Notes: a model not told the origin generated them from the sequence alone. Counted from the first letter of the stretch, positions 15,620-49,170 are shown. The stretch is 57,749 bases of DNA from a virus (IMGVR_UViG_3300030037_000004:1-57749), one strand, 5' to 3'. Made by a program: numbers and translations.

Positions 15620-17782
15620 CTACTTAGCAAAGAAGTAAGACTTGCCTGTGTTATCTAGCTTGTTCTCCAATTGGCCAACTAACTGTGCAAATGTGTGCTT
15701 TCCAACACCATCTAGGTCTCTATCACCATCTACATCGAACTGGCTCATCTTCTTGAGTATTGGAGTGGTTCTAGCACGTTCAACACCTTCAAAGTACAAC
15801 CCAACAATGTCTGTGCCTTGAGTCATATAACCTCTCTTTTCATTACACTCACTACCAAATATGGTCATGTATGCTGATTGTATGGCTCTGTGTAGCTTGC
15901 CGTCTATCATGTCATTGATGTTAACTCTAAAGCAGTCATGAACTGCAATGATATGTTGAGCACCTTCATCTTGTGCAAGATGGTTAATGATAAGTCTGGC
16001 TAGTAATGCATCCGTGGCTTGAATCAGGTTAACAAAGCCTGTTCTCATGTAATCACTCAAGCTATCCTTCTTAGTCCTGAATGTGATCTTCTTGAATGTG
16101 TGAGCCTTTGCAGCCCCAAATACTGTTACATCAGGTAGTTCAGTGTCGAATGTCACCAACTCACCATGCAGGTTAAGCTTAGTCTTGTAATTCATTGATA
16201 CATTGAAGCCATCAGGCATTAGGTGGCTAGTAGCTTGCTTAGTCATAAACATCAGGCCACCGTTCTCATCCTTACAAGCATGTGCTGCCTTGATACCCAC
16301 TCTCAAGTACTCCATCTTACCAAATGATGTCTCTATAGCTGCATGAAAGCGCTTGGCGTTCTTCTCCATTGACTTCATCGGGCCATTACTGATGATTTCT
16401 ATCAAGTGACGGAATGAATCAACAGCCATATCCTTCTCGCTAGGCAAGATAAACGCTTGATATGACTGACCATAGAAGATACCCATGTATGGCTTCTTGA
16501 TAACACTTCGAGGTATGTTGCCAAACCCTGCCGTAATACAAGCATCAGTAGCTAGTTTATAAGCGTCATCCAGTTGTTCTAATGTGAAGCCACAAGCAGC
16601 AGCAATACGTTGATCATTAGTCATTAATGCACCTAACTGAGGCCCACTACACTTAGCATCCAAGCCAAATGCCATGCCAATGTAAGGCTTAGCGAACTGT
16701 TCAGGTGCTTTCATGTGTCTAACTATTGCACGCCTGATATTGACTGCTTTCATCAATGACCATGGCTTCTTACACAAACTAGCCTGTCCAGCTAACAACT
16801 CACCAATGATAAACTGTGATGCTGATGTAACCTTGGCTAACTCTGCGTCCAAGTCCTTGAATGAGTGCATGTCCTCTATCTCAGCGTCTATGATTTGTAA
16901 CGCCTTAACACAGTTGTAATGCATCCCAACTCCATGTAAGTCCATCATTGCTCTTGCGAAGTCACTTGATTGCCCATTTGGCCCATGACATGCCGCTTGA
17001 TAGATACGACCTCTTGTATCACCAAAGAACTCACTAATACGTGCTACATTACCTTCAGCTATCAACACCTTACAGCCATCATACACGTATCTCTCGAACA
17101 CCTCATTACCCTTAACATTGGTAAGATCATGTGATACCTGCTCCTTGACCTTCTCAGCCACTTGCATCATGAACTCATCAACATTAAACACAGTTTGCTC
17201 TAGGTTATGTATTGCATCATCAAAGCACTTACTAGTCTTAGTACGAGTCTGCTTACGTCTAACTACCCAGCTAGCTTCATCAAACACTGCATCAGCACCT
17301 TGTAGCAAGCTATCGCCTTTGAACACACTTTGGTTCATCTTGACTATCTTGGCGGTGGCTAATGTTGGGTAATGTGGTAACTTCACCTTATCTAGTGATA
17401 GCAAGTACTCGCCTGCCTCTACCTCTTCACCATCTGTTACTATCAAGTCAGCACGTTCTAGTGCTTGTAACCAGTCTAGTGCCACTGCATCGTACTGCAT
17501 CTCACGGGGTACATCACCCTCTTGTAGCACGGTACCGCGTATGGCCTTATCCATCTTCTTGTGCCACCTAGCGTACCCGTACTCTATGTACTCTTGTGTA
17601 TCTAATAAAGCTGATGCTACTACTAAGCTGTCTGTTGTGCTCAAGCCTGCATTGAATAGCACTTGAACTATCGTGCTTATCTTACTGTCATCTGTTGTTA
17701 GTTGTGGCTTCATAGTTAAGATCTTATCAAGGTTAGTCATAGTTGTATTACTCTCGGTTGATGAAACATTAAGGTTAGACAT
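15620..17782 (-). CDS. Single-subunit DNA-dependent RNA polymerase 1 (divergent, 720 aa)
   Basis: DTRGRIY, motif A GLDAKCSGPQ, motif B RSVIKKPYMGIFYG, FVNLIQATDA, motif C VHDCF align by eye with T7 RNAP motifs; GGAG RBS. Confidence 0.88.
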   Translation of the reverse strand: MSNLNVSSTESNTTMTNLDKILTMKPQLTTDDSKISTIVQVLFNAGLSTTDSLVVASALLDTQEYIEYGYARWHKKMDKAIRGTVLQEGDVPREMQYDAVALDWLQALERADLIVTDGEEVEAGEYLLSLDKVKLPHYPTLATAKIVKMNQSVFKGDSLLQGADAVFDEASWVVRRKQTRTKTSKCFDDAIHNLEQTVFNVDEFMMQVAEKVKEQVSHDLTNVKGNEVFERYVYDGCKVLIAEGNVARISEFFGDTRGRIYQAACHGPNGQSSDFARAMMDLHGVGMHYNCVKALQIIDAEIEDMHSFKDLDAELAKVTSASQFIIGELLAGQASLCKKPWSLMKAVNIRRAIVRHMKAPEQFAKPYIGMAFGLDAKCSGPQLGALMTNDQRIAAACGFTLEQLDDAYKLATDACITAGFGNIPRSVIKKPYMGIFYGQSYQAFILPSEKDMAVDSFRHLIEIISNGPMKSMEKNAKRFHAAIETSFGKMEYLRVGIKAAHACKDENGGLMFMTKQATSHLMPDGFNVSMNYKTKLNLHGELVTFDTELPDVTVFGAAKAHTFKKITFRTKKDSLSDYMRTGFVNLIQATDALLARLIINHLAQDEGAQHIIAVHDCFRVNINDMIDGKLHRAIQSAYMTIFGSECNEKRGYMTQGTDIVGLYFEGVERARTTPILKKMSQFDVDGDRDLDGVGKHTFAQLVGQLENKLDNTGKSYFFAK

Positions 17783-17909
17783 TGTATTACTCCACTTAGT
17801 TAAGCAAGACCATTATTGATCATACTATTCGAAAGAACTCTAAAGTAAAAGAGACTCCTTTATACACCTGAATCCCTAAGCGTCTCGGGCTTATATATAT
17901 TTCTAAAAA

Positions 17910-18110
17910 TACAAGCCAATACTAGCCAACCCGACCTAATACTGGCTAATACAAGCCTTTACTACCTTGCCACTTCCTATAACTACCTAATACTACCCTG
18001 AACCTACCTTTCTTCTACCTTGTACCTACCTCGATCCTCCGCCTATGTTACCTCCTAGTACTACCTAGTTACTGCCTATAACTACCTAGAATAAACCTAG
18101 TACTAGCATA
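17910..18110. repeat. Degenerate helically phased repeat array (CWAGCC/CTACCT units, ~10-11 bp period) between AT-rich blocks
   Basis: Unit cores near 17916, 17926, 17935, 17946, 17956, 17965, 17976, 17986, 17996, 18007, 18018, 18029, 18039, then 18054-18107. Confidence 0.8.
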
Positions 18111-18160
18111 TATAATATATTTATAATCAGGTCAGTAGGGTATACACACTGTTACCTTTA

Positions 18161-18200
18161 GAGCCTACCCACCCTAGCTACAGCTAAGACAGGCAGACTC
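18161..18200 (-). terminator. 18 bp G-U-rich hairpin after the last late gene
   Basis: GAGUCUGCCUGUCUUAGC-UGUA-GCUAGGGUGGGUAGGCUC; 6 G-U pairs; no U-tract. Confidence 0.6.
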
Positions 18201-18209
18201 CACCTAATT

Positions 18210-20066
18210 CTAGTACTTAATGTACCACTTTGTATCCTCTGTACCAGCCGCAGACAGGCAATACCAGAGTTCGTTACTACCAGTATTAGTCTGTCTAGCT
18301 ATCCAGAGTGTGCCAGCGTCTTGATCAAACTCCAGACCATCCCAGCCCCAATCAGCAGCCGAGTCGAAGAATGTTGAGAAGGAAACAGTTGCAATGTCCA
18401 AATCATAGATCCTACGGTTAGCAGCCGAGTCTTGTACATACAGGATCTGCTTAGCCTCATCTAGCGCTATGTCGATAATGCTACCACCAAGGTAGTTCCC
18501 TGCCACAATCCAAGCTGTACCTGTACCAGAGAAGACACCACCAGGCAGGTATGAGACGGTATTATCATCAGCACACCAAACATTACTAGTAGTCTCATCA
18601 ATGGTTATAGCACGTGCTGTACCACCCAAGAAATTACCAGCCTGTACTACTGATCCTGCACCTGCATACTGTACCTTCACTAAGTCAGGGTTGGCTGAGG
18701 TGCCTTCCTCTGCTACATACCACAAGTTACCGTTACGGCTATCCACAGCTATGCACTTTATCTGTCGTAGGGACTCTACCAAGTGGGATGTAAACGTCAG
18801 CCCTTTGTCATAACTTACCCATATCGTGCTTAGGAAACCGGCAACAGTAAGGACGAGTAGTCGGTCATGAAACTCATCATAAGTTATGTGCTGGATAGTA
18901 CTGACTGATACATTGGCTTCAAAGTCACCCACCTCAGTCCACGTACTAACACCGCCTATGCTTCTGTGTATCCGGTTAGTCGAAGCAGCCTGTGCCCAGT
19001 ATAAGTCACCACTAACTTTATCTCTGGCCATATCCACTGTGGTACCTGGCTGTACAGGATCACCAATGGTAGGTACTATAAGTGGAGCACCTAACGCACC
19101 TTTCAGACCTTTAAGGATAGGGTCTAGTTTGGGTGGGTTGAATGTGGTTCCACCATTACCATCTCCGAAGTTGGTACCTATGTGTCCGAATAGTAGATCA
19201 AACGTAACAGTCCTGGATATAGGCAAGCCGTCACAGGGGTGATAACGACGAGCTGCCATTTGCACGTCAGTACTGGCACTTACTATCATGTCACCTACAG
19301 AGGCACCATCTTGGGCTGCTACCCATCCGGCATCTTGTCTAACATAAGGACTACCGTCAGAGGGAGCATCAGCCATGCCACCAGGAACTATTTCCCAGTT
19401 ATTGTCCCTACGTGCGTAGAAGCTGCCGTTAGCTGGTGAGTCAGGTATGGTACCTGCAACTTCAGACTGGATAGGTGGGTGAGCTTCATGGAAGAGCCTA
19501 CTAGCAGCGGCTGGTGTCATTGCTGAACCGTCTGGACTCGTCGTAGCTCCTGCGTTATACAACACCATCTCGCCGTTGCTGTTACCCATTACCCAGTTGT
19601 CGCTTCCGCCAGTTGTCCAGAAGAAGAGTTTGGGTAGTTGGCTACGAAGGGTTATGTCATTCTTGTTCCAAGCTGTGAGAGAGTCACTAGTGTGGTGAAT
19701 GTCATCAATCATCAAGCCGTAGTCAATCGTGTGATTAGCTGGTGCGTCACCCAAGTAGGTACCTTGTGACCAGCTATCGTTAGCAATAAGTGGCTCTACA
19801 CCTAATGCCCAGTTAACTGTAGCTGTCCACATTGACCCAGCATGGTAACAGCGTGCACCAGCAACGTATGTCACTTCTGCATCCCAAGAGCTATGTCCGC
19901 GCTCGGCTTGGTTTAGCATGTTACTGTCTAGTGCTGACAAGACATGGTTCATTTTCTGGAAAGTAGGTATCTCGGCTAACCAGCCTGTCTCGTAGAGGGT
20001 ATCACCAGGGTCTGTAGCGGTTCCAGTACTTGACCAGACTTTACTTAGTTGTATTGTATCTGTCAT
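18210..20066 (-). CDS. Tail fibre / receptor-binding protein
   Basis: Last gene after the baseplate; N-terminal GW..EIP...MN anchor, two D.P.[DN]G..Y.R....W repeats, tail-collar motif PCDG..ISR...LF..IG..FG.G.G.TTF..P, propeller-like C-terminus. Confidence 0.88.
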   Translation of the reverse strand: MTDTIQLSKVWSSTGTATDPGDTLYETGWLAEIPTFQKMNHVLSALDSNMLNQAERGHSSWDAEVTYVAGARCYHAGSMWTATVNWALGVEPLIANDSWSQGTYLGDAPANHTIDYGLMIDDIHHTSDSLTAWNKNDITLRSQLPKLFFWTTGGSDNWVMGNSNGEMVLYNAGATTSPDGSAMTPAAASRLFHEAHPPIQSEVAGTIPDSPANGSFYARRDNNWEIVPGGMADAPSDGSPYVRQDAGWVAAQDGASVGDMIVSASTDVQMAARRYHPCDGLPISRTVTFDLLFGHIGTNFGDGNGGTTFNPPKLDPILKGLKGALGAPLIVPTIGDPVQPGTTVDMARDKVSGDLYWAQAASTNRIHRSIGGVSTWTEVGDFEANVSVSTIQHITYDEFHDRLLVLTVAGFLSTIWVSYDKGLTFTSHLVESLRQIKCIAVDSRNGNLWYVAEEGTSANPDLVKVQYAGAGSVVQAGNFLGGTARAITIDETTSNVWCADDNTVSYLPGGVFSGTGTAWIVAGNYLGGSIIDIALDEAKQILYVQDSAANRRIYDLDIATVSFSTFFDSAADWGWDGLEFDQDAGTLWIARQTNTGSNELWYCLSAAGTEDTKWYIKY

Positions 20067-20072
20067 ATTTAT

Positions 20073-20663
20073 TTAAACTCTATTTATAGTGAATACTATA
20101 CCATTAGTCACGAACCACTTTGATGCGTACTGTATGATAGCTTCTTCAGGTGAGGTAACTTCAGTTAAGGCTAGGTTCAGAGTAAACTGTCTAGCAGCAG
20201 GATAAGTTACAGACATAGTTACAGGTGATCTGTTTAGTAATCTCCTTACTATCTCGTACACATCCTCTACACTACATTGATCCTTATTCATCACATATGC
20301 TTTAGCCCGTAAGAGGTTTTTATACACATAATCAGTTAAAGGGGTTACGGTGTACCCTAGCGAGTTCTCATCCTTGAACACACCATCACCAAAGCCTAGT
20401 GCTCCAGTGGCCCCTTGGAAACCAAAGAACTCTTCAGCGACCACAACATCCCGCTTCTGGTCTAGGATAAGGCCGATAATGTCTAGTGCCTCACCTTCAG
20501 CGTTGTCAAGGAATCGGCCCAGGTACGAGGCTTCAGAGTTAGCAAAGCAGATGTTCATCTCTTCGAAGTAACACATGAAGTATTCGCGTAAGATCGGCTT
20601 ACCTTGGAACTGCTCCAGCAACATGGCATCCATGATCTTCTCACCACGTTTTAAATCTACCAT
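20073..20663 (-). CDS. Baseplate wedge protein (DUF2612-like)
   Basis: LDNAEGEALDIIG, FFGF, LTD..Y..LLRAK; follows baseplate J. Confidence 0.8.
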   Translation of the reverse strand: MVDLKRGEKIMDAMLLEQFQGKPILREYFMCYFEEMNICFANSEASYLGRFLDNAEGEALDIIGLILDQKRDVVVAEEFFGFQGATGALGFGDGVFKDENSLGYTVTPLTDYVYKNLLRAKAYVMNKDQCSVEDVYEIVRRLLNRSPVTMSVTYPAARQFTLNLALTEVTSPEEAIIQYASKWFVTNGIVFTINRV

Positions 20664-20671
20664 GATACTCC

Positions 20672-21805
20672 TTAGGCTATAGTGATGTCAGTGGGGTCGA
20701 TTACAGCGAACTCGCCCTCAGCAATTACAAAGTTGGCTGCGGTCTGATTAGCTTGGCCCACTTCCCCGATAAGGAAAGAATCAACCTGTGCTTCGGCGTA
20801 GCCTGTGATTATGCCGTAGTAGTGGCTGTGTATAATGTCGCCACCTGCAAGCAAGGCATTAACCTTAGCTGCTATGTCTGTCTGTATACCCTCATCAGCA
20901 CCGGCAGTATCATCCGATAGATAGGTAAGGTTGACAGTCATCTCGATATTAACAGCAACTGCCTTATCGAAGTTGATTGTGACGTTTACGCCTTGGCTAT
21001 CCTGAACTACAACGCTCGTAGTACCAAAGGTAGGTGTACCAGTGTTTAGGGTGGCAAGGATTGTTCTAGCTATTTGCGCGTCAGTAACAGTACCGACTTC
21101 ACCTACAGTAACGTGGATGTTACCTACAGGAGTGCCATCGGCCAAAGGTGCAATGGTGTGGTTATCTGCAACAGTTACTTGCGGGATACCCAGCTCACGT
21201 ATGCGTGCTTCAGTTACGGCTGCCACTGACGTGTAGTTGCGTAGTACTGTCTTGTTTCGCAGGTTACGGAATGCTTCTTCTGTTTGTGCAGAGGAGCCAA
21301 CTGTACCGGCTGCGGTCTGAGTAACGCCTGTCCAGCCTGGGATAGCTGTAACTACATTGACTATCGTGCCAATGGGCATTGCAATAGCACCAGCGTTCTT
21401 AGCTATGACTTGTACGTTTCCGCCTACTGTGGCAGCAAGTACGGTAATGAACTCGTTGTCTAGAGCGTCACTCACGATACTACCACGAGGCACTGAGGTA
21501 CCGGCTGTACCAGTGAGGTTAACGAATGTCGCTGATCGTTCTGCAACGCCGTACTCTATGCCTGATATGAGTCCAAGATGCTGCAAGCCTAAGCCATTGG
21601 CAATAAGAGGGCTGTAGCTGTAGTGAGTCGTCTTTTGCTCTGACTGAAGCAAGGAAGCTTCAAAGCCGTAAATCCTAAGGAACTGCCCTTCGATGGACTC
21701 CACTGACAAGTCAATATTCGGATCGTAGGCAATTAGCCTTGCTGTGATACGCGCTACTATAGTTTCGTAGCTATCGGCTGTATAGCCGTCTCTAGTTAGT
21801 CCCAT
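20672..21805 (-). CDS. Baseplate J-like wedge protein
   Basis: MGLT.DG start, GTAGTSVP.GS, G...TEEAFR; synteny. Confidence 0.88.
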   Translation of the reverse strand: MGLTRDGYTADSYETIVARITARLIAYDPNIDLSVESIEGQFLRIYGFEASLLQSEQKTTHYSYSPLIANGLGLQHLGLISGIEYGVAERSATFVNLTGTAGTSVPRGSIVSDALDNEFITVLAATVGGNVQVIAKNAGAIAMPIGTIVNVVTAIPGWTGVTQTAAGTVGSSAQTEEAFRNLRNKTVLRNYTSVAAVTEARIRELGIPQVTVADNHTIAPLADGTPVGNIHVTVGEVGTVTDAQIARTILATLNTGTPTFGTTSVVVQDSQGVNVTINFDKAVAVNIEMTVNLTYLSDDTAGADEGIQTDIAAKVNALLAGGDIIHSHYYGIITGYAEAQVDSFLIGEVGQANQTAANFVIAEGEFAVIDPTDITIA

Positions 21806-21809
21806 GATA

Positions 21810-22145: not shown

Positions 22146-22154
22146 ATGGATTCC

Positions 22155-24228: not shown

Positions 24229-24236
24229 GATAGCTC

Positions 24237-28616: not shown

Positions 28617-28623
28617 AACTTCC

Positions 28624-39245: not shown

Positions 39246-39247
39246 TG

Positions 39248-39739: not shown

Positions 39740-39743
39740 TTTC

Positions 39744-40342: not shown

Positions 40343-40634
40343 TAGAGTCTACCTCTAGATGGATAACTTCTTTAGTTGCTTGGGTAGTATTACCTTCTAC
40401 AGAGAAGATCGTTACAGGTATCTTGTATTGCCCTGTGTAGTCTAAGGACAGCTTTATGTAAGCCACGTTAAACTCGATCCGCTCATCCATAAGGGTAAGC
40501 CCATTTGGGATAGTCCAAACGACACCACTTAGGGTCTCTCCCTCTTTAGCAAGGAAGGACGCTAGGTTAATGCCGAAGTACTTTTCTGAACCTTGGTATG
40601 AACAAGGCCACTTATAAACAATCTCACAGCTCAT
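40335..40634 (-). CDS. Putative fibre adaptor protein (99 aa)
   Basis: FL..GETL..V.W....GLT pattern; beta-rich. Confidence 0.55.
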   Translation of the reverse strand: MSCEIVYKWPCSYQGSEKYFGINLASFLAKEGETLSGVVWTIPNGLTLMDERIEFNVAYIKLSLDYTGQYKIPVTIFSVEGNTTQATKEVIHLEVDSIV

Positions 40635-40637
40635 GTC

Positions 40638-40883
40638 TTACCTCGGGAATATATCAATTACATATGAGTCACGTTGTACTATAACCACATCCTCAGTAGT
40701 TACTACGTCAGCAATAAGTACTGGCACTATGGACTTACCAAAGACGTAAGCATCTCCGCGCTTGTTAGGGCCGAAGGTGTAACTGCCTTGGATAGGTGTG
40801 CCAGCACCAGGAGCGACGTAGAGGGAAGCACCAAATGTGAATCCCCCTGGTACTGAGTTAGGGCCAAAGGTGTAGTTGGCCAT
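40638..40883 (-). CDS. Small protein with duplicated YTFGPN-x5-[FY]xFG motif (81 aa)
   Basis: Internal two-fold repeat visible in the translation. Confidence 0.7.
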   Translation of the reverse strand: MANYTFGPNSVPGGFTFGASLYVAPGAGTPIQGSYTFGPNKRGDAYVFGKSIVPVLIADVVTTEDVVIVQRDSYVIDIFPR

Positions 40884-40886
40884 AGC

Positions 40887-43391
40887 TTAGGGTGCCTTTG
40901 CTGTCATTACATGAAGTTCTGTTATAGCACCGTCTGCACTAATGAATTCACAGAAGTACGGGGCACCCAAGGTTAGACCCAAGATAGCTACAGAGAACAA
41001 ACCGTTTGCATCAGTAGAGAACGTAGTCGGCACAGTTAGTTGAGTCCCACCAAAGGAACCTGACACTGTGATTCGTACGCCTGCTTTGTTTGCATAAGGT
41101 ACGCCAGTCACACCATCCACCAAAGTTTCAGATATAACAGGTGCGTTAGATGCAATCGTAACAGTCCAGCTAAACACGTTAGAAGAAGACGAACCATCAG
41201 CGTTAGTACCAGTAACAACTATGCCTGTGTTTACGCCAATAGCTTGGGTGGTGCCTACGAACTTGCCAGCAGCCGTTAAGGATATGCCAGCAGGTAAGGT
41301 CTCAGCAGTCACAGCATATGACGTTGGAAGCTTCTTAGGCTCTTCATCAGTAGACCAAGGCCCAGTGATGTCATAGTCAATAGCCGTACCTATCTCGTGT
41401 GTCTGGTCAGCAAGCGTACCACTGAACAAAGGAGGGAAGGTATCAACAACAGTCCAAGTAAACGCATTAGAGTCTGCAAAGCCATCAGCGTTAGTAGCCC
41501 GAATAACTATACCAGCACTAACTCCAACAGCCGTGGGCGTGCCAACTAAGTTGCCTGAGTTATCTAGAGTTACACCAGCAGGTAAAGTACTAGCCTGTAC
41601 AGCATAAGAAGTAGGTGCATTTGAGAAGAATGTAGATACACTCTCACCAGATAATGCAACCCCTATCTTCCCAGACTTAGCACCGATAGTACCAGCAAAC
41701 AAAGGAGGAGCCGCAGCCGCGCCAGTGTTGTTGATATTCAATGTACTTACTGGAGTCCACGCGTTAGCACTTGCATCCCATATCTTGTACGGTATAGAAA
41801 CACTTGCAGCAGGGACAACTTGTACACTACCGTCAGCGCCTATGGTAAGGCCAGTAGTTGTGGCAAAGGCAATACGATCGCCAACAGCTAAGGTAATACT
41901 ACCAATGGTTGTATCACTAGGTGTGTGCTCTTGTACTGTCTCGGTACCCGCCGTATCAGTAGGGATAGTTACATCCGTGAACTCAACAACAGACCAAGTA
42001 GCAGGCTTAGCAAGGGTTACTTGCGTACCAAAGGTTACGACACCAGCATCATCTTCAGCAGAGAATGTGTAAGGTCGATCCCAATCTAGTGCTATATGTA
42101 ACGGGATGGTTACTACAGGATCATCTGTAGACCAGTCAGTTACAGTAAGTGCTTGCCCACCAAGTAATATGTTCTGAGTGGTTGGGTTTACATCAAGGTC
42201 AGTACCATTAACTACTACCCCAACCTGTCCAGCTTCTACCGAGTTATCGCCGTCAACATCTACAATGATTGGGACAATAGCCGTGATCGTTATGTTGAAT
42301 GTATCAGACGCAGTAGGGCCAGCACCATCGGAAGCAGTAACAGTAATAGCTACAGCACCAGCAACACCTTCAGTACCCGCGCTTGTTAGGAAACCTGCGG
42401 AGGTCAGAGCCATGCCAGTTGGCATAGTACCACCAGTTACAGAGAAGGTTAATGTATCCCCTGCGTTAGGATCTGAGAAGTGTTGGCCAATGTCTATATT
42501 GATTACAGAGCCAGTGGCAAAAGATACATCAGGTACGGCAGAATCAAGCTGTGGGTTCTGGTCAACTACAGCCTGTATGAAAGCACCGGCAGTCGTACCT
42601 AGTAAGGCAGGAACCGATTCAGACTTTAGACGGTAGTCACGTGCAGCATAGTCCATGAAGTCGCCGGAAGTTACTCCAGCAGTTACAGCACCATAAGCAT
42701 TGAACGTGGCATCACTAGCAGCATTGTTGGCAGATCCAGTAGGAGCTGTGCCCGAGCTAAGTAGGAATGCAGGGTTAGTAGGCGAGTGCAGTACACAGCG
42801 GTTGAAGCTTGAAGCCCCAGTTGTTCGCAAGAATACACAAGCGTTTGCACTTGAAGTGCCACCAGCAGCATTGATGAACGAAGAACGCAGGCCAGTCATG
42901 CCAACCGCGCCTTGTAAATCTATCACCTTGTTAGCATTACCGTTTGCATCGCCAGGGTGCTGGACAGCTACAGAGTCAGTAAAGTTAACATTGGTCGAGT
43001 TGTTCGTCATGTTGAAGTAAGCATCTATGACTGAGGCTTCAAAGGTTAACTCGTTATAAGTATCGCCAGTTGTAGTGAAGTCAAAGTTGCGCACGTACAT
43101 GTTCAAGAACTTAACATTGTTCTCTCGGAAGTCTAAGTTGAACCCGCCAGCATCCAAGACAGCAATGCTAGGTAATGTTGCAGTACGAATATCACCGACG
43201 CATTCAGCACCAGGTGCAGCCGTTACCGTGATAGCAGCAGCCGAACCATATCTAAACTGGAAGTTACCAGTAAGGGTAGTCGTGCCCGCAGGCACCTGAA
43301 GGATTGCTCCCTCGGCGTCTACGGTATTTCTTTCTGCATCATGCCACGCCTGGATAGTAGCATAGTCAGTACCAAGTAAATGAGTAGCCAA
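40887..43391 (-). CDS. Large Ig-domain virion protein with N-terminal beta-helix-like region (834 aa)
   Basis: Three He_PIG/cadherin-like repeats (MPTGMALT, LPAGVTLD..G.L.GTPT, LPAGISLT); DYRLK..S closing motif; TTG start after AGGAG. Confidence 0.8.
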   Translation of the reverse strand: MATHLLGTDYATIQAWHDAERNTVDAEGAILQVPAGTTTLTGNFQFRYGSAAAITVTAAPGAECVGDIRTATLPSIAVLDAGGFNLDFRENNVKFLNMYVRNFDFTTTGDTYNELTFEASVIDAYFNMTNNSTNVNFTDSVAVQHPGDANGNANKVIDLQGAVGMTGLRSSFINAAGGTSSANACVFLRTTGASSFNRCVLHSPTNPAFLLSSGTAPTGSANNAASDATFNAYGAVTAGVTSGDFMDYAARDYRLKSESVPALLGTTAGAFIQAVVDQNPQLDSAVPDVSFATGSVINIDIGQHFSDPNAGDTLTFSVTGGTMPTGMALTSAGFLTSAGTEGVAGAVAITVTASDGAGPTASDTFNITITAIVPIIVDVDGDNSVEAGQVGVVVNGTDLDVNPTTQNILLGGQALTVTDWSTDDPVVTIPLHIALDWDRPYTFSAEDDAGVVTFGTQVTLAKPATWSVVEFTDVTIPTDTAGTETVQEHTPSDTTIGSITLAVGDRIAFATTTGLTIGADGSVQVVPAASVSIPYKIWDASANAWTPVSTLNINNTGAAAAPPLFAGTIGAKSGKIGVALSGESVSTFFSNAPTSYAVQASTLPAGVTLDNSGNLVGTPTAVGVSAGIVIRATNADGFADSNAFTWTVVDTFPPLFSGTLADQTHEIGTAIDYDITGPWSTDEEPKKLPTSYAVTAETLPAGISLTAAGKFVGTTQAIGVNTGIVVTGTNADGSSSSNVFSWTVTIASNAPVISETLVDGVTGVPYANKAGVRITVSGSFGGTQLTVPTTFSTDANGLFSVAILGLTLGAPYFCEFISADGAITELHVMTAKAP

Positions 43392-43395
43392 TTTC

Positions 43396-44715
43396 TTATG
43401 CTCCTAGTGTTGGGTAGCCAGCGGCTGTGATTGGTATACGGAACTCACGGAATGCCGTTGCTTCAGTGTTGCGCTTGACAGCCACGTAAACTACATCCTG
43501 TCCAACCAAAGGTATCTGGTCAGTCTGGTAATGTACCTTGTTGTGTCCGCCAGAGTTTACACCGACAACAGCATTCCAAGGATCTTGCTTCTTACTTGTA
43601 GGTGCTTCAGTACCATGAGCATCGAAGCCACCATTATCATAGAAGGAAGAGTACGCATACTTAACAGAATAGACTCCATCAGTCTTGCTTACTGTCTCGT
43701 TACGGCCCCACTGAACCCAAACTGTATTTTCATTGCCAGGGTCTTGGCGGATCGTATGCGCACAACCTTTAATGTTCTGGTAATCTACATCAGCATAAGG
43801 CTCAGTATAGAACTCAATGCCATCTACCCACCAAGTCGAAGGATAGTTGTCTACCCCGTACTTATCAGATATGTAGAAGTAAGTGATCATGTCGAAGTAG
43901 TTCTCAGCACGAGTATCGCCTGTGTAATCAGAGTAATCGTTGTTGCCGAAAGTGTTCTCCATTGGCCAGTACCAGTCACCTGGATCACCGTATGATTCTT
44001 TGTCAGAACGTTGAGCATCAGGCCACGCATCTACTTCTATGCAATGCCAGTTGTTAACATAGTCAAGGTTGTAGTAGTGGTATAGCTTGAAGTTATCAGT
44101 CTCTTTAGTACCAGTACCAGAGCCAGGACGACGTAGATAGATACCCATGTGATGGTTAGTTGCTCCATCAGGTTGCCCAGCGTTGTTTGCATAGACACCA
44201 CCTCCAGCAGCTTCACTCGCAGTTGTTGCAGCCACGACAGTGCTAGGTGGATTCCAGATCCAATAGCGCATCATGTTGTACGTCTTCTTCTGCCAAGTTG
44301 CGGCAGTCTCTTCACTTAACTGAGAGTACTTGCTTGCATTATCTTGGTTGTAGTAAGACAGAAACATGGAGCCAGCGTTACCAGGCGAGCCATTGCCACC
44401 GTTACGGATAGATCCAGTGTCACATATAATGCGCATGGACTTAGTACCGAACAAAGGCTTGTCACTTGTTATCTCGGCAGTACCATCACGTCGATCGCCC
44501 GAAGTGTCAGCATCCTTTTGGAAATACTTGCGTATGTCTCCCTCGGAACTGGTAGAGCGCTTGATAGGTATAACATCACCAGCATAGTTTTCGAAGCTGT
44601 CGAATGTGATGCTGTTTAGTTCTTGCGAAATCTCAGGAGCGTTACCGGCAGCATAGGCACCGTACATGCCATTACCTTGGTTCTTACTCTGAGCTATGTT
44701 CATTGTTATAGCCAT
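43396..44715 (-). CDS. Hypothetical beta-sandwich protein, possible carbohydrate-binding/lyase-like (~439 aa)
   Basis: Rich in W/Y/D/N/G; GTKSMRI, WHCIEV, WVDGIEF; start set at MAITM. Confidence 0.7.
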   Translation of the reverse strand: MAITMNIAQSKNQGNGMYGAYAAGNAPEISQELNSITFDSFENYAGDVIPIKRSTSSEGDIRKYFQKDADTSGDRRDGTAEITSDKPLFGTKSMRIICDTGSIRNGGNGSPGNAGSMFLSYYNQDNASKYSQLSEETAATWQKKTYNMMRYWIWNPPSTVVAATTASEAAGGGVYANNAGQPDGATNHHMGIYLRRPGSGTGTKETDNFKLYHYYNLDYVNNWHCIEVDAWPDAQRSDKESYGDPGDWYWPMENTFGNNDYSDYTGDTRAENYFDMITYFYISDKYGVDNYPSTWWVDGIEFYTEPYADVDYQNIKGCAHTIRQDPGNENTVWVQWGRNETVSKTDGVYSVKYAYSSFYDNGGFDAHGTEAPTSKKQDPWNAVVGVNSGGHNKVHYQTDQIPLVGQDVVYVAVKRNTEATAFREFRIPITAAGYPTLGA

Positions 44716-44716
44716 G

Positions 44717-44902
44717 TTATCCCTTGAGCGAGTTCCAGCCCGAAGGCTTTTCAATGTACAGGCCAGAGGCAGTATCAACATCTAATGTTACAGACGAACC
44801 GCTGACCAAAGTTATAGTAGCCAGGATACCACCTGACTCATCCTTAATATCGAATGACTTGTTCTTATCGGATCTTCCATCCAATCTAGTCTTGAGACTC
44901 AT
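44717..44902 (-). CDS. Hypothetical protein (61 aa)
   Basis: AGGAG RBS; fits exactly between neighbours. Confidence 0.7.
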   Translation of the reverse strand: MSLKTRLDGRSDKNKSFDIKDESGGILATITLVSGSSVTLDVDTASGLYIEKPSGWNSLKG

Positions 44903-44911
44903 TAGTAACTC

Positions 44912-46483
44912 CTAGCTCCAAGCCTCGTAGCTCATGCCACCTTCAGCGAAACCTATAATGGCAGCATCGGCAACATTGTCAGCAAAGTCATCATGTCCTG
45001 TTGAGGAACCAAACTCTGACTGACCTACAAGTTCAAGGATCATATGTTCTAAGTGTTCATGTACAGCCGGTAAGACAATCTCACCTGACTTTAGGTAGGG
45101 TATAGCATTAAGGAAGCGAGTGAACTTGTCATTGGCTGTTGTGCCATCTCTAGCTACTGGCTCGACTGTTACCGTACCATCTTCCATGAACTGTTGATTC
45201 AAGAACAAGCCAGAAGACTTATCCTCCATATGAAGTGCAGTAGGTCGTATCCTTGTTGCGTTTGGGTTCCACTTTTGATGCTTATCCCAGAAGTCTCTCA
45301 TCTGTCTAATAAGCTCAGGCACAGTCCACTTACCGAGTATTACATCTAATAGGTAAAGCCTTCCATCCTGGTGCATCCCCCATACGCAAGCTACTGTGTA
45401 ATCTGAGTAGGTCTTGGTAGTGGAGGCTGTATCAGCGGTCATGAAAGCAAACCTGATCTTGCTAAGGTCTAGCTTTTCATAGAGAGCAATGTCTTCCCTT
45501 GTGATAGAGACTTTACCTTTACCGATAGGACTCCCCATGTACTGGCTGTAGAATGTATAGGCATCCTTCATGCGCATGGTTTGCAGAGTCTTAATGTTCT
45601 TACGCTTAGGCCAGAAGCTAGACTCACCAAACTCATCGAAAGCTTCAGGTGGTCGCTCTAGGTCGTACAGGATAGGTTCGACATGTGTATAGCCAAACTT
45701 CTTTATCTCTGCATCGTAGTAAGCTTGACTGCCCGTTTCCTTGGTTATGATGCCAGGAATGTTCAGCCATTTATATATGGAGCCATCGCCGCCTTTCATG
45801 AGGTAGCCACATAGGTCATCTGCATTCAGTCGTTGCATGATAATCACTAGAGGTGTCTCTTCAGTAGCAAGACGGGACAGCAAAACGTTTTGGTAGCGGT
45901 TGTTACTCTTCTCACGTTCGGTCGGTGAGTTGGCATCATCTGGCTTGAGGTAATCATCAATACAGAATAGACCAGAGAAAGAACCTTCTACAAGCGTGCC
46001 AGCACCTTTACCAGTCATCTTACCTGTGGGTGGTATCGCATGTAGAACCCCTGCACTCTCGGTGCCAAGCTTCTCCACGGACTTCTTCATCTTATCAATG
46101 ACCACATCTGGGAAGACGCGTTCGAAGTCGGGGTCGCTCATTATGGCACGTATGTAGCCTGCACTCTCTGCAAGTACATCAGTGTTAAACCCAGTAAGGA
46201 TAGTCTGGGCACAGGGGTTGACGCACCAAGCATACAACGGAAGCATTTGGGAGACGATTAGTGTCTTGCCTGCTCGCGGTGGTATGTTTATTATCATTCT
46301 AGGTGTCTCTTGATCTATCAGCTCTTGTATGGCTGTGAACAGGACATCATAGTAATCGACATAAACAAGCTTGGCACCTGTTAGTACTCTGAAGCAAAAG
46401 GATGAAAACTTCTTGAAGTCACTTAGTAGCAACTCACGTAAAGCATCAACCTCATGGTTCTCTAATGAATCTATGTAGCTCAT
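44912..46483 (-). CDS. terL: Terminase large subunit
   Basis: Walker A IINIPPRAGKT, Walker B CIDD..KP, IMQRL, nuclease DTA...DYT and HDDFAD. Confidence 0.95.
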   Translation of the reverse strand: MSYIDSLENHEVDALRELLLSDFKKFSSFCFRVLTGAKLVYVDYYDVLFTAIQELIDQETPRMIINIPPRAGKTLIVSQMLPLYAWCVNPCAQTILTGFNTDVLAESAGYIRAIMSDPDFERVFPDVVIDKMKKSVEKLGTESAGVLHAIPPTGKMTGKGAGTLVEGSFSGLFCIDDYLKPDDANSPTEREKSNNRYQNVLLSRLATEETPLVIIMQRLNADDLCGYLMKGGDGSIYKWLNIPGIITKETGSQAYYDAEIKKFGYTHVEPILYDLERPPEAFDEFGESSFWPKRKNIKTLQTMRMKDAYTFYSQYMGSPIGKGKVSITREDIALYEKLDLSKIRFAFMTADTASTTKTYSDYTVACVWGMHQDGRLYLLDVILGKWTVPELIRQMRDFWDKHQKWNPNATRIRPTALHMEDKSSGLFLNQQFMEDGTVTVEPVARDGTTANDKFTRFLNAIPYLKSGEIVLPAVHEHLEHMILELVGQSEFGSSTGHDDFADNVADAAIIGFAEGGMSYEAWS

Positions 46484-46491
46484 GGTACTCC

Positions 46492-47074: not shown

Positions 47075-47090
47075 GAGTTTATTCTCCTAA

Positions 47091-47130
47091 ACTAAACAGT
47101 ACTAGATAGTACTAGATAGAACTAAACAGT
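47091..47130. repeat. Four tandem 10 bp units (ACTARAYAGW) next to an AT-rich tract
   Basis: actaaacagt actagatagt actagataga actaaacagt. Confidence 0.9.
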
Positions 47131-47180
47131 TAATAATAACTAATAATAAATAATTAAAGACAAATCCTAAGTACTGGAGT

Positions 47181-47205
47181 GCTACCGCGCTTCGCTTGCT
47201 TTAAA
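47181..47205. repeat. 25 bp element, exact inverted copy of 14840-14864
   Basis: GCTACCGCGCTTCGCTTGCTTTAAA. Confidence 0.95.
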
Positions 47206-47310
47206 AGACTTAAAGAAACCCCCCTTACCCCCCATGACTTTTGAGAGACCCTTATCAATAGCACAAGTCTCACATACATTTTTGGCAAATATCCACGGGG
47301 GACTAAGGCT

Positions 47311-49170
47311 CTAGACGAAAAACTTTTCTAGATTGACCATGCTCTCTGGAGTCCAATCTCCAAGCCCCGTTACAGGCCCTAAATCGACCTCATACTTGGC
47401 TTCCCAATAGACCTTTAGCTCCTGCATATAGTTCCTTGAGTACAGCTCTATGAAGCAATCAACGATCAGACGGTACAATTCGGGTCTGTAATTTACATGT
47501 GTGGCAAAGGAATCATGAATGAAAACCATGGGTATACCAAGCAAGTCCATCTTCCTGGCTACCATGCGCAGGTGAGTAGCATCCAAGCTGTGTATGATGT
47601 TAGGTGCTATGGCTGACCTGTGCTTACGTGAACAAGGTAGCCGCTCGCTAAAGTCTTTGATCTGCAATTGGAACTCTTCACCATTGCTTAGCTTACATGC
47701 TAGTACCTTCTTAACTCCAGCCACCTTACGCTGTACACAGTTGAAGCCATCAGGTGTTATCCACTCAATGTCAACATTGCCAGCTTTGGCTATGGTAGCA
47801 GCAGCATCACTCACCCAACCGACAGCCTCAGACAGTTCGCCCAAGGTCTCATTAAGACTCTCATAGACTTCCTTGCCTAACTGGAAAGTTTCAGCACGCT
47901 CCAGCCCATCATCCTTATACACATACTTCTCTTCATCTACATCCCAGTACGAGGTAGCACCAAACAAGCTGGCCATATGATCAGCACTGGTTACCATCTT
48001 GGCATTGTATCCCCAAGTCATGACAGGGATCTTAGCCGCCTTCCTTGTAGCATAGTGCTTCTTGTCATCAGGTAGGGTTTGCTTCCACTTGTCTGCAATG
48101 TACTCATAGATGTCTAGGTCGTGCGCTTCCTCATGCATCCCAATGTGGCGGGTAATGGCATTCGAACGGGTTAAAGCGCTCCAGTGTTGCAGCCCTGAAC
48201 AACGCCCGTCTAGCGGTATAAAGGCTGGCAGGGGGCGATTCTTATCAATGTGGTACTCAGCTATCAGTTTTGCATTAGCGAGGTAACAGAAGGGCTTATC
48301 AGCCGTGTGCCACTCGTCAACGTACTTGCCTGGTTCACTGGCGTGCATCCACATTTGCTCAACAGACCACTCCTGTTCTGAATAGCCTTCGGTAGCCTCC
48401 AGCAGAGCGGCATATCCCACTTCTGAGAGGACTTGGGCATAACTTGGTATCAATAGTGCTTTCTCGTGATCGGCACCCTGAGGGCTAACACCGCAAGTCG
48501 TAGTCACATACATACGAGAGCGGGAGTCTAGGAAGTAAGGGAAACGGAATGCCTCTTCCTCAAGTACCTTTGCACTAGCTATGGTTCGCTGGTACATGCA
48601 AGACTTTACAATGTCCTTGGTAGCCTTGGGATACTTCTCTAGGTTCTCTTGTACAAACCTGTTAACAGTAAATTGTTCCTGTGCCATACGCTTAACTACA
48701 GCCGAAGTACGGATATTCTCATGACTCCTTATGCCACCACGGACAGCTATGTACGTACTTAGGTAGTCCTTGCCTACTATACGAGGCATGGTTACGGCAG
48801 AATCTGGGCCTACTACCTCACAGATTTTGAGCTTAAGTAGCTTACGGGTAGCCTCTACAGTGCGTTTATTAAAACCTGTAATGATTCTAACGTATCCTTG
48901 TAGCTCTAACTCGCCCATGAAGCGTAACGCCACAAGCATAGGTTGGTCAGCCTCCAGCATCTTCTTAGCCATAGCTGGTACTAACGTGTGCAATTCTGTG
49001 CCAAACAAGGCATGGAGTGAGAACAAGCAGTGTGTATAACAGCGTTGCCAGACTTCCCACTTCATCTTATCCCAACGGCGCTGGTTAACATCATCAAATC
49101 TAGTAATACCAGCCGCCCTTGCTGGCCTGGGTAGCTCAATGCCACCCTCCAGCTCTATCATTCCTACCAT
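47311..49170 (-). CDS. Single-subunit DNA-dependent RNA polymerase 2 (T7-like, 619 aa)
   Basis: LDSRSRMY, motif A PLDGRCSGLQHW, motif B RKAAKIPVMTWGY, WITPDGF, APNIIHSLDATH, motif C IHDSF. Confidence 0.95.
   Translation of the reverse strand: MVGMIELEGGIELPRPARAAGITRFDDVNQRRWDKMKWEVWQRCYTHCLFSLHALFGTELHTLVPAMAKKMLEADQPMLVALRFMGELELQGYVRIITGFNKRTVEATRKLLKLKICEVVGPDSAVTMPRIVGKDYLSTYIAVRGGIRSHENIRTSAVVKRMAQEQFTVNRFVQENLEKYPKATKDIVKSCMYQRTIASAKVLEEEAFRFPYFLDSRSRMYVTTTCGVSPQGADHEKALLIPSYAQVLSEVGYAALLEATEGYSEQEWSVEQMWMHASEPGKYVDEWHTADKPFCYLANAKLIAEYHIDKNRPLPAFIPLDGRCSGLQHWSALTRSNAITRHIGMHEEAHDLDIYEYIADKWKQTLPDDKKHYATRKAAKIPVMTWGYNAKMVTSADHMASLFGATSYWDVDEEKYVYKDDGLERAETFQLGKEVYESLNETLGELSEAVGWVSDAAATIAKAGNVDIEWITPDGFNCVQRKVAGVKKVLACKLSNGEEFQLQIKDFSERLPCSRKHRSAIAPNIIHSLDATHLRMVARKMDLLGIPMVFIHDSFATHVNYRPELYRLIVDCFIELYSRNYMQELKVYWEAKYEVDLGPVTGLGDWTPESMVNLEKFFV

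What the first reader, a model, noticed from the sequence alone, without database searches (positions are those of the whole stretch)
15620..49170. Two separate, short single-subunit RNA polymerases in one myovirus: a candidate two-step transcription cascade
Seen: two ORFs each carry the full T7-type catalytic motif set. RNAP1 (15620-17782, 720 aa) has DAKCSG, RSVIKKPYMGIFYG and VHDCF; RNAP2 (47311-49170, 619 aa) has DGRCSG, RKAAKIPVMTWGY and IHDSF. Outside the motifs they look unalike, and RNAP1 has NLIQATD where T7 has NFVHSQD. RNAP1 sits alone between non-coding blocks ahead of the early genes; RNAP2 ends the replication module, just before terminase. Known: T7 RNAP is 883 aa; T7 places it early and phiKMV-like phages late; N4 has two phage RNAPs but with a different architecture. 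Inference: RNAP1 drives early/middle genes or genome entry and RNAP2 drives late genes, and their short N-termini imply non-T7 promoter recognition or cofactors. I cannot tell from sequence whether relatives with this pair are already described.
Basis: partly seen in the sequence, partly recalled or inferred. Interest (0 to 1): 0.85.

Follow-up and report, generated by a model that had tools for sequence, protein, structure and literature searches.

The report
Marine myovirus with two RNA polymerases
This uncultivated marine phage, and a whole group of its relatives, carries two very different T7-type RNA polymerase genes at fixed places in the genome, which suggests a two-step, phage-run transcription programme that has not been described for this kind of phage.

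Summary
The window is a complete 57.6-kb uncultivated myovirus genome, and all its genes lie on the minus strand. Both ORFs are single-subunit RNA polymerases with every catalytic motif. Both give confident T7-RNAP-like models (VIA Z 27 and 31-33).

They are not recent duplicates:
- RNAP1 (720 aa) is the divergent counterpart of the single Chaseviridae RNAP and sits in the same place, alone, ahead of the early genes.
- RNAP2 (619 aa) groups with Autographiviridae RNAPs. It is the last gene of the replication module, its start overlaps the ligase stop, and the packaging genes follow directly.

The pair, in this same order, occurs in 8 of 8 near-complete relatives from IMG/VR. Some of these are as distant as cultured Chaseviridae. 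Five of 5 cultured Chaseviridae have only the RNAP1 type. Six full-text literature searches found no description of such a pair.

The temporal cascade (RNAP1 early/middle, RNAP2 late) fits gene position but is not shown. I found no clear multi-copy promoter family, only leads: a T7-like TATAGGTrGAGTCTG motif in the early blocks and a TAGTACTATCTAGT repeat in the late leader.

Verdict: a real, conserved new variant of phage transcription architecture. Interest is moderately high.

The parts
15620..17782 (-). RNAP1, 720 aa. Divergent single-subunit RNA polymerase, counterpart of the Chaseviridae gp01 RNAP. It forms its own transcription unit.
   Evidence: PHROG_414 9.7e-25. tblastn best hits are Chaseviridae RNAPs at 25-27% identity. 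AF2 pLDDT 88.6. T7 RNAP elongation complex Z 27.4. In the tree it is sister to Chaseviridae, SH-aLRT 99. Residues invariant in 40 homologues: D375, R425, K429, Y437, H615, D616.
47311..49170 (-). RNAP2, 619 aa. Compact T7/Autographiviridae-type RNA polymerase and last gene of the replication module.
   Evidence: Pfam PF00940 4.1e-48. T7 RNAP by sequence 1.5e-19. AF2 pLDDT 91.5. Yeast mitochondrial RNAP Z 33.2 and T7 Z 31.5. In the tree it is sister to 7 Autographiviridae RNAPs, SH-aLRT 99. Residues invariant in 42 homologues: D321, R376, K380, Y388, H552, D553.
17783..18209 (-). Non-coding block upstream of RNAP1. It holds short GGTAGT/TAGTACTAGG repeats and one copy of TAGGTGGAGTCTG.
14577..15619 (-). 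Non-coding block of about 1 kb between RNAP1 and the first early genes. It is repeat-rich (AAGCCAG-type repeats).
18194..18206 (-). Candidate promoter-like motif TAGGTGGAGTCTG, copy 1, upstream of RNAP1.
   Evidence: Exact copy.
14813..14825 (-). Candidate promoter-like motif, copy 2, preceded by TATA. It lies ahead of the early genes.
   Evidence: Exact copy. The same motif stands in the equivalent blocks of relatives G015 and G018.
10430..10442 (-). Candidate promoter-like motif, copy 3 (TAGGTAGAGTCTA), in the intergenic region 10061-10449.
47075..47310 (-). Leader between RNAP2 and the first late ORF. It holds a tandem TATCTAGTAC repeat (47101-47118) and one arm of a long-range inverted repeat.
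49170..50051 (-). ATP-dependent DNA ligase. Its stop codon overlaps the RNAP2 start codon by one base.
   Evidence: PHROG_114 1.6e-27. Gap of -1.
44912..46483 (-). Terminase large subunit, at the start of the 29-kb, almost gap-free late gene run (47074 down to 18210).
   Evidence: PHROG_38 3.6e-76. Gene gaps.

Best explanation
The window is the complete genome of an uncultivated marine myovirus that is a distant relative of the Chaseviridae. It encodes two active, unrelated-looking T7-family RNA polymerases that divide transcription between them in time.

RNAP1 is the counterpart of the single Chaseviridae polymerase. It stands as its own unit at the head of the early region. It is made first and transcribes the early and middle (replication) genes.

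RNAP2 is an Autographiviridae-type enzyme. It is the last, translationally coupled gene of the middle module, in the position phiKMV-like phages use. It then transcribes the long, almost gap-free late (packaging, head, tail) gene run that starts right after it.

Shown: both are intact polymerases of the T7 fold with conserved catalytic residues. They have separate evolutionary origins. The pair and its positions are conserved across a broad clade.

Inferred: which genes each one transcribes, the order of action, and the promoters.
For: Enzyme identity:
- Family and PDB sequence matches.
- Models with pLDDT 88.6 and 91.5.
- T7 and mitochondrial RNAPs are the top structural matches: Foldseek E 1.4e-15 for RNAP1; VIA Z 27.4 for RNAP1 and 31.5-33.2 for RNAP2.
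- The T/DxxGR motif and the motif A, B and C residues are invariant in 40 and 42 homologues. They align to T7 D421/R425, D537, R627/K631/Y639 and H811/D812.

Separate origins:
- In the tree, the RNAP1 clade joins Chaseviridae and the RNAP2 clade joins Autographiviridae, each with SH-aLRT 99.
- Holding the two clades together is rejected, p-AU 5e-10.

Conservation of the pair:
- Of 19 IMG/VR records found with the RNAP1 profile, 7 hold an RNAP2 homologue, including 5 of the 5 that are at least 90% complete.
- Of 42 records found with the RNAP2 profile, 10 hold an RNAP1 homologue, including 8 of the 9 that are at least 90% complete.
- All 8 near-complete relatives have the order tail fibre, RNAP1, early genes, primase/helicase, DNA polymerase, exonuclease, (ligase), RNAP2, TerL, portal ... 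tail.

Position:
- The RNAP2 start overlaps the ligase stop.
- The late genes run from 47074 to 18210 with gaps of at most 130 nt.
- In Chaseviridae the RNAP is gene 1, inside the terminal repeat.
- In Pradovirus F5 and phiKMV the RNAP closes the DNA-metabolism module.

Promoter lead:
- A T7-initiation-like TATAGGTrGAGTCTG motif occurs only in the RNAP1, early and middle non-coding blocks of the window (3 sites).
- It also occurs in the equivalent blocks of relatives G015 and G018.
- The late leader carries a different repeat.
Against: - No expression timing, transcription start site or in vitro data exist.
- I found no multi-copy, T7-style conserved promoter family.
- The TAGGTrGAGTCTG motif is absent from 2 of the 5 close relatives (G011, G012) and only weakly present in G002.
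- An exact 13-mer pair alone is not rare in 57 kb.
- TAGTACTA occurs in early, middle and late non-coding regions alike, so it does not separate two promoter classes.
- The sigma-70 scan found fewer sites than shuffles and none in the block ahead of RNAP1, so how RNAP1 is first expressed is unexplained. The host is unknown, so the E. coli consensus may not apply.
- The tree is a 'quick' tree with long branches and only 7 Autographiviridae.
- The clade for the AU test was named after the tree was seen.
Confidence: 0.55

Rival explanations
1. The labour is divided, but not as an early-to-late relay. RNAP2 is the general phage transcriptase for middle and late genes, as T7 RNAP is. RNAP1 has a narrow role at the genome end, such as pulling the DNA into the cell, transcribing only the first block, or priming replication in the terminal repeat.
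For: RNAP2 is much the closer of the two to T7 and mitochondrial RNAPs. It is also the better conserved among relatives, at 49-60% against 34-42% identity. RNAP1 sits where Chaseviridae have their terminal repeat.
Against: Cultured Chaseviridae manage with the RNAP1 type alone: 5 of 5 genomes have a single RNAP locus. That enzyme type can therefore presumably run a whole programme. RNAP2 is encoded last in the middle module, which is late for an enzyme meant to transcribe that module.
Confidence: 0.2
2. RNAP1 is made late, since its gene follows the tail-fibre gene. It is packed into the virion and delivered with the DNA, like N4 vRNAP or phiKZ vRNAP. The programme would then be independent of host RNAP from the first minute.
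For: The RNAP1 gene lies directly downstream of the late operon, 427 nt after the tail-fibre stop. No sigma-70-like promoter was found ahead of it. A copy of the candidate phage motif stands right after the tail-fibre stop.
Against: At 720 aa it has none of the large N- and C-terminal domains of N4 vRNAP. The model is a plain T7-like core. No homologous Chaseviridae RNAP was annotated as a virion protein in the records I read. There are no proteomic data.
Confidence: 0.07
3. One of the two is not a transcriptase in vivo. Instead it primes DNA replication, as mitochondrial RNAP does and as T7 RNAP does at the T7 origin. RNAP2, which sits among replication genes, would be the candidate.
For: RNAP2 is embedded in the replication module and translationally coupled to the ligase. 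Its best structural matches include mitochondrial RNAPs.
Against: The phage has its own primase/helicase (PHROG_239 1.9e-108). phiKMV-like phages keep a true late transcriptase at the same position.
Confidence: 0.08
4. One copy is a decaying or recently acquired passenger with no function.
For: RNAP1 falls below Pfam's threshold.
Against: Both genes are intact. Both are conserved in position in 8 of 8 near-complete relatives. The catalytic residues are invariant in 40 and 42 homologues. The branching of the window and its two nearest relatives agrees between the two clades.
Confidence: 0.02

Closest known systems
Chaseviridae single-subunit RNAP (gp01 of Erwinia phage vB_EamM-Y2, Proteus phage Myduc, Pectobacterium phage PP101, phiEcoM-GJ1 group)
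   Same: RNAP1 groups with these enzymes. The RNAP1 family profile matches them at 1e-42 to 1e-46. It has the same position: first gene, standing alone ahead of small early genes. The rest of the virion and packaging module is also closest to Chaseviridae, with MCP and TerL at 45-46% identity.
   Different: Identity to the cultured enzymes is only 25-27%. The window's clade adds a second polymerase, which 5 of 5 cultured Chaseviridae lack. At 57.6 kb the genome is slightly above the family's 52-56 kb (ICTV profile, whole text read).
Autographiviridae RNAP in the phiKMV/Pradovirus arrangement
   Same: RNAP2 is sister to the 7 sampled Autographiviridae RNAPs. It sits at the end of the DNA-metabolism module, just before the structural genes, with a ligase upstream as in Xanthomonas phage F5.
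   Different: It has 619 aa against 805-883 aa for those enzymes (lengths) and 25-31% identity. It resides in a myovirus that already has another RNAP.
Phage N4 (Schitoviridae): virion RNAP followed by RNAPII
   Same: Two phage-encoded T7-family polymerases act in one genome, and in N4 they form a known temporal relay (abstract of PMC4496689 in the listing).
   Different: N4's first enzyme is a giant virion protein, and its second is a two-gene heterodimer, gp15 + gp16. Here both are single chains of ordinary size. No ORF exceeds 1137 aa. No third RNAP-like gene was found.
phiKZ-like jumbo phages: virion and non-virion RNAPs
   Same: The logic of two phage polymerases for successive gene classes (abstracts of PMC4666361 and 10.1101/2023.09.14.557509 in the listings).
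   Different: Those are multisubunit, beta/beta'-like enzymes, not T7-family single chains.
T7 RNA polymerase
   Same: Same fold and same catalytic residues. RNAP2 has a specificity-loop segment of identical length, 47 residues between PDGF and the NFVHSQD-type motif.
   Different: RNAP2 and RNAP1 are 264 and 163 residues shorter, mostly in the N-terminal third. In the HMMER alignment, T7's promoter-reading residues R746, N748 and R756 are not kept in RNAP2, so the promoter must differ (inference). RNAP1 has Q where T7 has H784.

Membership tests
T7-like single-subunit RNA polymerase (Pfam PF00940) | Pfam RNA_pol match above the gathering score | tested here: met
   RNAP2: 164.7 bits against a cut-off of 22.
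T7-like single-subunit RNA polymerase (Pfam PF00940) | Pfam RNA_pol match above the gathering score (RNAP1) | tested here: not met
   RNAP1: 15.1 bits against 22, E 0.011. It is recovered by PHROG_414 at 9.7e-25, by profile-profile comparison with the RNAP2 family at probability 98.5%, and by fold. The failure therefore reflects divergence, not a different fold.
T7-like single-subunit RNA polymerase | Catalytic residues: motif A Asp (T7 D537), motif C His-Asp (H811/D812), motif B Arg/Lys/Tyr (R627/K631/Y639), and the T/DxxGR motif | tested here: met
   RNAP1: D375, H615/D616, R425/K429/Y437, D255-R259. RNAP2: D321, H552/D553, R376/K380/Y388, D215-R219. All are aligned to T7 numbering. The D, K, Y, H-D and last-Arg positions are invariant in 40 and 42 homologues.
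T7-like single-subunit RNA polymerase | Right-hand polymerase fold with a T7-type N-terminal domain | tested here: met
   RNAP1: 8dh5_M Z 27.4, rmsd 3.8, 466 aligned, model 26-718 to T7 50-882. RNAP2: 1s76_D Z 31.5, rmsd 3.1, 480 aligned; 1cez_A Z 25.9, 584 aligned, model 7-619 to T7 73-883.
T7-like single-subunit RNA polymerase | Promoter-specificity loop, and sequence-specific initiation at a conserved phage promoter | tested here: inconclusive
   The loop segment has T7's length in RNAP2 (47 aa) and is 11 aa longer in RNAP1. No multi-copy promoter family was found, only leads.
Chaseviridae | Myovirus structural module related to the family's | tested here: met
   Sheath, baseplate, MCP, portal and TerL are present. 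The best cultured matches for MCP and TerL are Chaseviridae at 45-46% identity.
Chaseviridae | One large single-subunit RNAP; genome of 52-56 kb (ICTV profile) | tested here: not met
   There are two RNAPs and 57,622 unique bases. The RNAP1 counterpart is present.
Chaseviridae | Long terminal repeats of about 3 kb that include the RNAP gene; gammaproteobacterial host | not testable with these tools
   The assembly shows only a 127-nt end overlap. The runs available were contigs, not raw reads. The host is unknown.
N4-like (Schitoviridae) transcription system | Giant virion RNAP plus a heterodimeric RNAPII | tested here: not met
   The largest ORF is 1137 aa and is not RNAP-like. Both RNAPs are single chains. 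N4 gp16 is only a distant structural match to RNAP2, Z 20.1.
Autographiviridae | Podovirus of about 40 kb with one RNAP | tested here: not met
   A tail sheath and baseplate are present, the genome is 57.6 kb, and there are two RNAPs. Only RNAP2 is related to the family's enzyme.

The most novel reading that the evidence does not exclude
These phages run a transcription programme that is independent of host RNA polymerase, using two naturally orthogonal, unusually compact T7-family enzymes. RNAP1 would be delivered with the virion, or expressed at once from a terminal repeat, and would read TATAGGTrGAG-type promoters in the early and middle blocks, including one ahead of its own gene. RNAP2 would read a different promoter in the late leader. 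That would be an N4-like relay rebuilt from two ordinary-sized single-chain polymerases, in a myovirus lineage abundant in the sea.
Probability: 0.15. Interest if true: 0.8.

Novelty: new variant of a known kind. Interest (0 to 1): 0.65.

Why it matters
Single-subunit phage RNAPs are the workhorses of in vitro transcription and of orthogonal gene circuits. Phages with two of them that are not N4-like have not, as far as my searches show, been described.

A conserved natural pair would have three uses:
- It would be a new model for how phages time their genes. The pair is 619 and 720 aa, 18% identical, and presumably reads different promoters.
- It would give a ready-made pair of compact, mutually orthogonal polymerases.
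- It bears on Chaseviridae biology. Their promoters are still unidentified (ICTV profile), and their single RNAP now appears as one half of a wider ancestral or derived two-enzyme design.

The group is diverse, with over 100 homologues of each enzyme in metagenomes. The sources I could see are seawater and marine samples.

Tried and rejected
Promoter hunting
- Exact 11-mers present three or more times, 16-mers with up to 3 mismatches among intergenic regions, and intergenic 8-mer enrichment in six genomes gave no T7-style multi-copy promoter.
- The sigma-70 and terminator scans found fewer sites than shuffles: 11 against 16.7 and 8 against 14.0 promoter-like sites.

T7-lysozyme idea
- PHROG labelled the C-terminus of 56276-57262 'endolysin; inhibits RNA polymerase'.
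- Pfam shows it is a dATP/dGTP diphosphohydrolase domain, so I dropped the idea of a T7-lysozyme-like RNAP regulator.

Third or virion RNAP
- The three large unknown ORFs between TerL and portal carry Ig-like or lectin-like domains, or nothing. None is RNAP-like.

Long-range inverted repeat
- The repeat 14840-14876 / 47169-47205 links the two post-RNAP non-coding regions.
- No counterpart of 13 or more exact bases exists in the 5 close relatives. I treat it as window-specific.

Metatranscriptomes
- Four marine RNA runs, from at most 3 samples in 2 studies, gave contigs at mostly 99% or more identity on early genes (about 8,384-9,795 and 10,800-14,795) and on the tail-fibre and neighbouring tail genes (about 18,174-19,025 and 20,257-20,905).
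- Nothing was laid on 15,005-17,806, the RNAP1 gene and its downstream block.
- These are contigs, so the hole proves nothing. I draw no conclusion about expression of either polymerase.

Other negatives and gaps
- Rfam and tRNA scans found nothing.
- Megablast of 25 kb against 50,697 phage records found no match.
- Literature: six full-text searches found no paper describing two T7-type RNAPs in a Chaseviridae-like or other non-N4 phage. The passages I read in three candidate papers were irrelevant. Subscription-only papers and supplementary files were not searchable.
- I did not use complex prediction, the protein atlas or the representative-protein search.

Full report
WHAT THE WINDOW IS

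The window is a whole IMG/VR virus record of 57,749 bases, rated 100% complete. Its first and last 127 bases are identical. That is the signature of a circular assembly, so the unique genome is 57,622 bp and the physical ends are unknown.

Every plausible gene lies on the minus strand. PHROG and Pfam searches give the layout, read in the direction of transcription:
- RNAP1 (17782-15620).
- About 1 kb of non-coding DNA.
- Many small ORFs, then a 525-aa unknown protein, a lysozyme (5399-4749), primase/helicase (3758-2031), and a DNA polymerase that runs across the assembly junction.
- A dATP/dGTP diphosphohydrolase-domain protein, ribonucleotide reductase, exonuclease, a metallophosphoesterase and an ATP-dependent ligase (50051-49170).
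- RNAP2 (49170-47311).
- A 236-nt leader, then a small ORF, a TerS-like ORF and TerL.
- Three large Ig/lectin-domain or unknown proteins, then portal, protease, major capsid protein, sheath, a 1137-aa protein, baseplate and tail fibre (20066-18210).
- 427 nt of non-coding DNA, which leads back to RNAP1.

The sheath and baseplate make it a myovirus. Its closest cultured relatives by major capsid protein and TerL are Chaseviridae, at 45-46% identity. Nothing in 50,697 phage records matches it at the DNA level.

THE OBSERVATION

Both ORFs and all quoted motifs are there.

Family matches:
- RNAP2 is an unambiguous Pfam RNA_pol protein (4.1e-48). It matches T7 RNAP chains in the PDB at 1.5e-19.
- RNAP1 is below Pfam's threshold (15.1 bits against 22). 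It matches PHROG_414 at 9.7e-25. A profile of 40 homologues reaches N4 RNAPII (3.7e-7) and T7 RNAP (2e-3) in the PDB.

Structure, from AlphaFold models built on alignments of 40 and 42 homologues:
- Both models are confident, with pLDDT 88.6 and 91.5 and pTM 0.87 for each.
- For RNAP1, Foldseek's best PDB matches are T7 RNAP elongation complexes (E 1.4e-15). VIA-align gives Z 27.4 (rmsd 3.8, 466 aligned, model 26-718 on T7 50-882).
- For RNAP2, the best matches are yeast mitochondrial RNAP (Z 33.2) and T7 RNAP (Z 31.5, rmsd 3.1, 480 aligned). The T7 promoter complex 1cez aligns 584 of the 619 residues onto T7 73-883.

Catalytic positions align to T7 and are invariant in each family:
- T/DxxGR motif: RNAP1 D255-R259; RNAP2 D215-R219.
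- Motif A Asp: RNAP1 D375; RNAP2 D321 (T7 D537).
- Motif B Arg/Lys/Tyr: RNAP1 R425/K429/Y437; RNAP2 R376/K380/Y388 (T7 R627/K631/Y639).
- Motif C His-Asp: RNAP1 H615/D616; RNAP2 H552/D553 (T7 H811/D812).

TWO ORIGINS, NOT A DUPLICATION

The two proteins barely recognise each other by BLASTP (E 0.011). Their family profiles align at 18% identity.

Against cultured phages:
- RNAP1 hits 83 records. The 40 listed are 52-56-kb Chaseviridae-type genomes at 25-27% identity.
- RNAP2 hits 2,608 records. The 40 listed are 40-47-kb podophages of the Autographiviridae type at 25-31% identity.

A 32-row maximum-likelihood tree was built with N4 gp16 as outgroup (quick search, LG+C20). It joins the RNAP1 clade to 5 Chaseviridae RNAPs and the RNAP2 clade to 7 Autographiviridae RNAPs, each with SH-aLRT 99. 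Forcing the two clades of the window's group together costs 83.8 log-likelihood units (p-AU 5e-10).

Caveats: the branches are long, the sampling is small, and the constraint was named after the tree was seen.

Within both clades the window's nearest relatives are proteins from contigs of the same lengths (55,557 and 55,515 bases). This fits joint vertical descent.

THE PAIR IS A CLADE TRAIT

Both enzymes have large metagenomic families: 231 and 141 proteins at E 0.001 or better among the 8,000 candidates scored in each search. None has an informative name.

In IMG/VR:
- The RNAP1 profile found 20 loci in 19 records. An RNAP2 homologue is present in 7 of the 19, including 5 of the 5 rated at least 90% complete. 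The other 12 are fragments of 24-59% completeness.
- Conversely, the RNAP2 profile found 42 records. An RNAP1 homologue is present in 10 of the 42, including 8 of the 9 that are at least 90% complete.
- The exception is a 46-kb record whose polymerase is only 28% identical to RNAP2. It is most likely an ordinary podophage.

All eight near-complete relatives keep the same order: tail fibre, RNAP1, early genes, primase/helicase, DNA polymerase, exonuclease, RNAP2, TerL, portal ... tail. Three of them (G045, G047, G050) are as far from the window as cultured Chaseviridae are, with MCP at 41-44% and RNAP2 at 34-40% identity.

Cultured Chaseviridae have one RNAP locus only. This holds for Y2, Myduc, pAh6-C, SppYZU05 and VPs20, that is 5 of 5, covering both subfamilies. 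In Y2 and Myduc that locus lies in the terminal repeat. The locus matches the RNAP1 profile at 1e-42 to 1e-46 (tested in three of them) and the RNAP2 profile only weakly, at 2e-9 to 6e-14.

The ICTV profile of the family, which I read in full, speaks of one large single-subunit RNAP and says its promoters are unidentified.

HOW IT PROBABLY WORKS

Shown:
- RNAP1 is a stand-alone unit flanked by non-coding DNA, in the place where Chaseviridae keep gene 1.
- RNAP2 is the last gene of the replication module. Its ATG shares a base with the ligase stop codon, so it is made with the middle genes.
- The late genes form a 29-kb run with gaps of at most 130 nt, starting 236 nt after RNAP2.
- This is the T7/Chaseviridae arrangement (polymerase first) and the phiKMV/Pradovirus arrangement (polymerase last in the DNA-metabolism module) combined in one genome.

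Inferred:
- RNAP1 transcribes the early and middle genes. RNAP2 transcribes the late run.

Leads on promoters:
- The 13-mer TAGGTGGAGTCTG occurs exactly twice, and once more with one or two changes depending on whether A is allowed at position 6. All three copies are on the coding strand and inside the three largest early/middle non-coding blocks: 18206, 14825 and 10442.
- Two of the copies are preceded by TATA, giving TATAGGTrGAG. This resembles the initiation region of T7-group promoters. That resemblance is recalled, not tested.
- The same motif stands several times in the block downstream of RNAP1 in G015 and once in G018. It is absent from G011 and G012.
- The late leader instead carries a tandem TATCTAGTAC repeat.
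- The palindrome TAGTACTA is over-represented: 7 copies against 2.2 expected, reached by 1 of 100 shuffles. Five of the 7 copies are intergenic. They lie in early, middle and late regions alike.
- None of this assigns a promoter to an enzyme.

On the 'short N-terminus' point:
- RNAP2 has a segment of exactly T7's length (47 residues) between its PDGF and NIIHSLD motifs. This is where T7's specificity loop lies. The residues there differ from T7's R746, N748 and R756.
- The corresponding segment of RNAP1 is 11 residues longer.
- Both models have beta-hairpins ahead of the position that aligns with T7 residue 265. They could correspond to the intercalating hairpin, but I could not inspect coordinates.

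WHAT IS KNOWN, AND NOVELTY

Two phage polymerases acting in turn are known from two systems:
- N4, with a giant virion RNAP followed by a heterodimeric RNAPII (abstract; gene layout).
- phiKZ-like phages, with two multisubunit enzymes (abstracts).

I did not find a phage with two ordinary-sized, single-chain T7-family polymerases of different lineages in six full-text searches. Subscription journals and supplementary files could not be searched.

I rate this a new variant of a known kind. The finding is real and conserved, and it is interesting for phage transcription and for enzyme engineering. Its mechanism is still inferred.

Noticed in passing
window 14840-14876 and 47169-47205: A 37-nt inverted repeat, 89% complementary with a 25-nt exact core that contains GCGAAGCGC. 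It links the non-coding block after RNAP1 with the leader after RNAP2. On the coding strand the two RNAs would be complementary. No counterpart of 13 or more exact bases exists in 5 relatives.
   Followed up: partly
window 56276-57262 (-): A 328-aa protein whose C-terminal half is a dATP/dGTP diphosphohydrolase N-terminal domain (PF18909, 1.3e-19). The best PHROG label, 'endolysin; inhibits RNA polymerase', is misleading here. phiKMV has a similarly named gene just before its RNAP.
   Followed up: partly
window 37254-44781 (-): Three large ORFs of 461, 834 and 663 aa lie between TerL and portal. Their only matches are He_PIG Ig domains (834 aa), a Laminin_G_3 lectin domain (663 aa) or nothing (461 aa). 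This region varies among relatives, with only partial tblastn matches.
   Followed up: partly
window 8848-8919 (-), inside the 525-aa ORF 8028-9605: A 36-nt tandem repeat of two copies, 97% identical. RNA-library contigs from two runs of one sample carry only one copy (a joint that skips 36 nt), so the repeat number varies between strains. The 525-aa protein has no family match.
   Followed up: no
window 14367-14379 and 14795: In two marine RNA-library runs of one sample, the contig over 14379-14795 is flanked by 28 or more letters that do not match the window. The two flanks are reverse complements of each other, so a strain variant has an inverted repeat around this 417-nt stretch just upstream of the first early genes.
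   Followed up: no
G011 (loci L042, L044): about 1229, 55148, 55519: This relative has its own repeated element, CTAATACAAACTA. Three copies lie 24-39 nt ahead of gene starts around RNAP1 and the early genes. It also has hairpins of the GCCCTATC...GGTAGGGCTTTT type after several genes. These are possible clade-specific promoter and terminator signals.
   Followed up: partly
L030-L032 (G015, G011, G012), about 40-100 nt after the RNAP2 stop: A conserved, probably structured element (GTTACTACCCCGC ... GGGAGAGG) lies between RNAP2 and the TerS-like gene in three relatives. It is not obvious in the window.
   Followed up: no
window 10859-11596 (-): An early-region 245-aa protein with a weak palmitoyl-protein-thioesterase (alpha/beta hydrolase) match, PF02089 at 2e-6 and just above the cut-off. 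This is unusual for a phage early gene.
   Followed up: no
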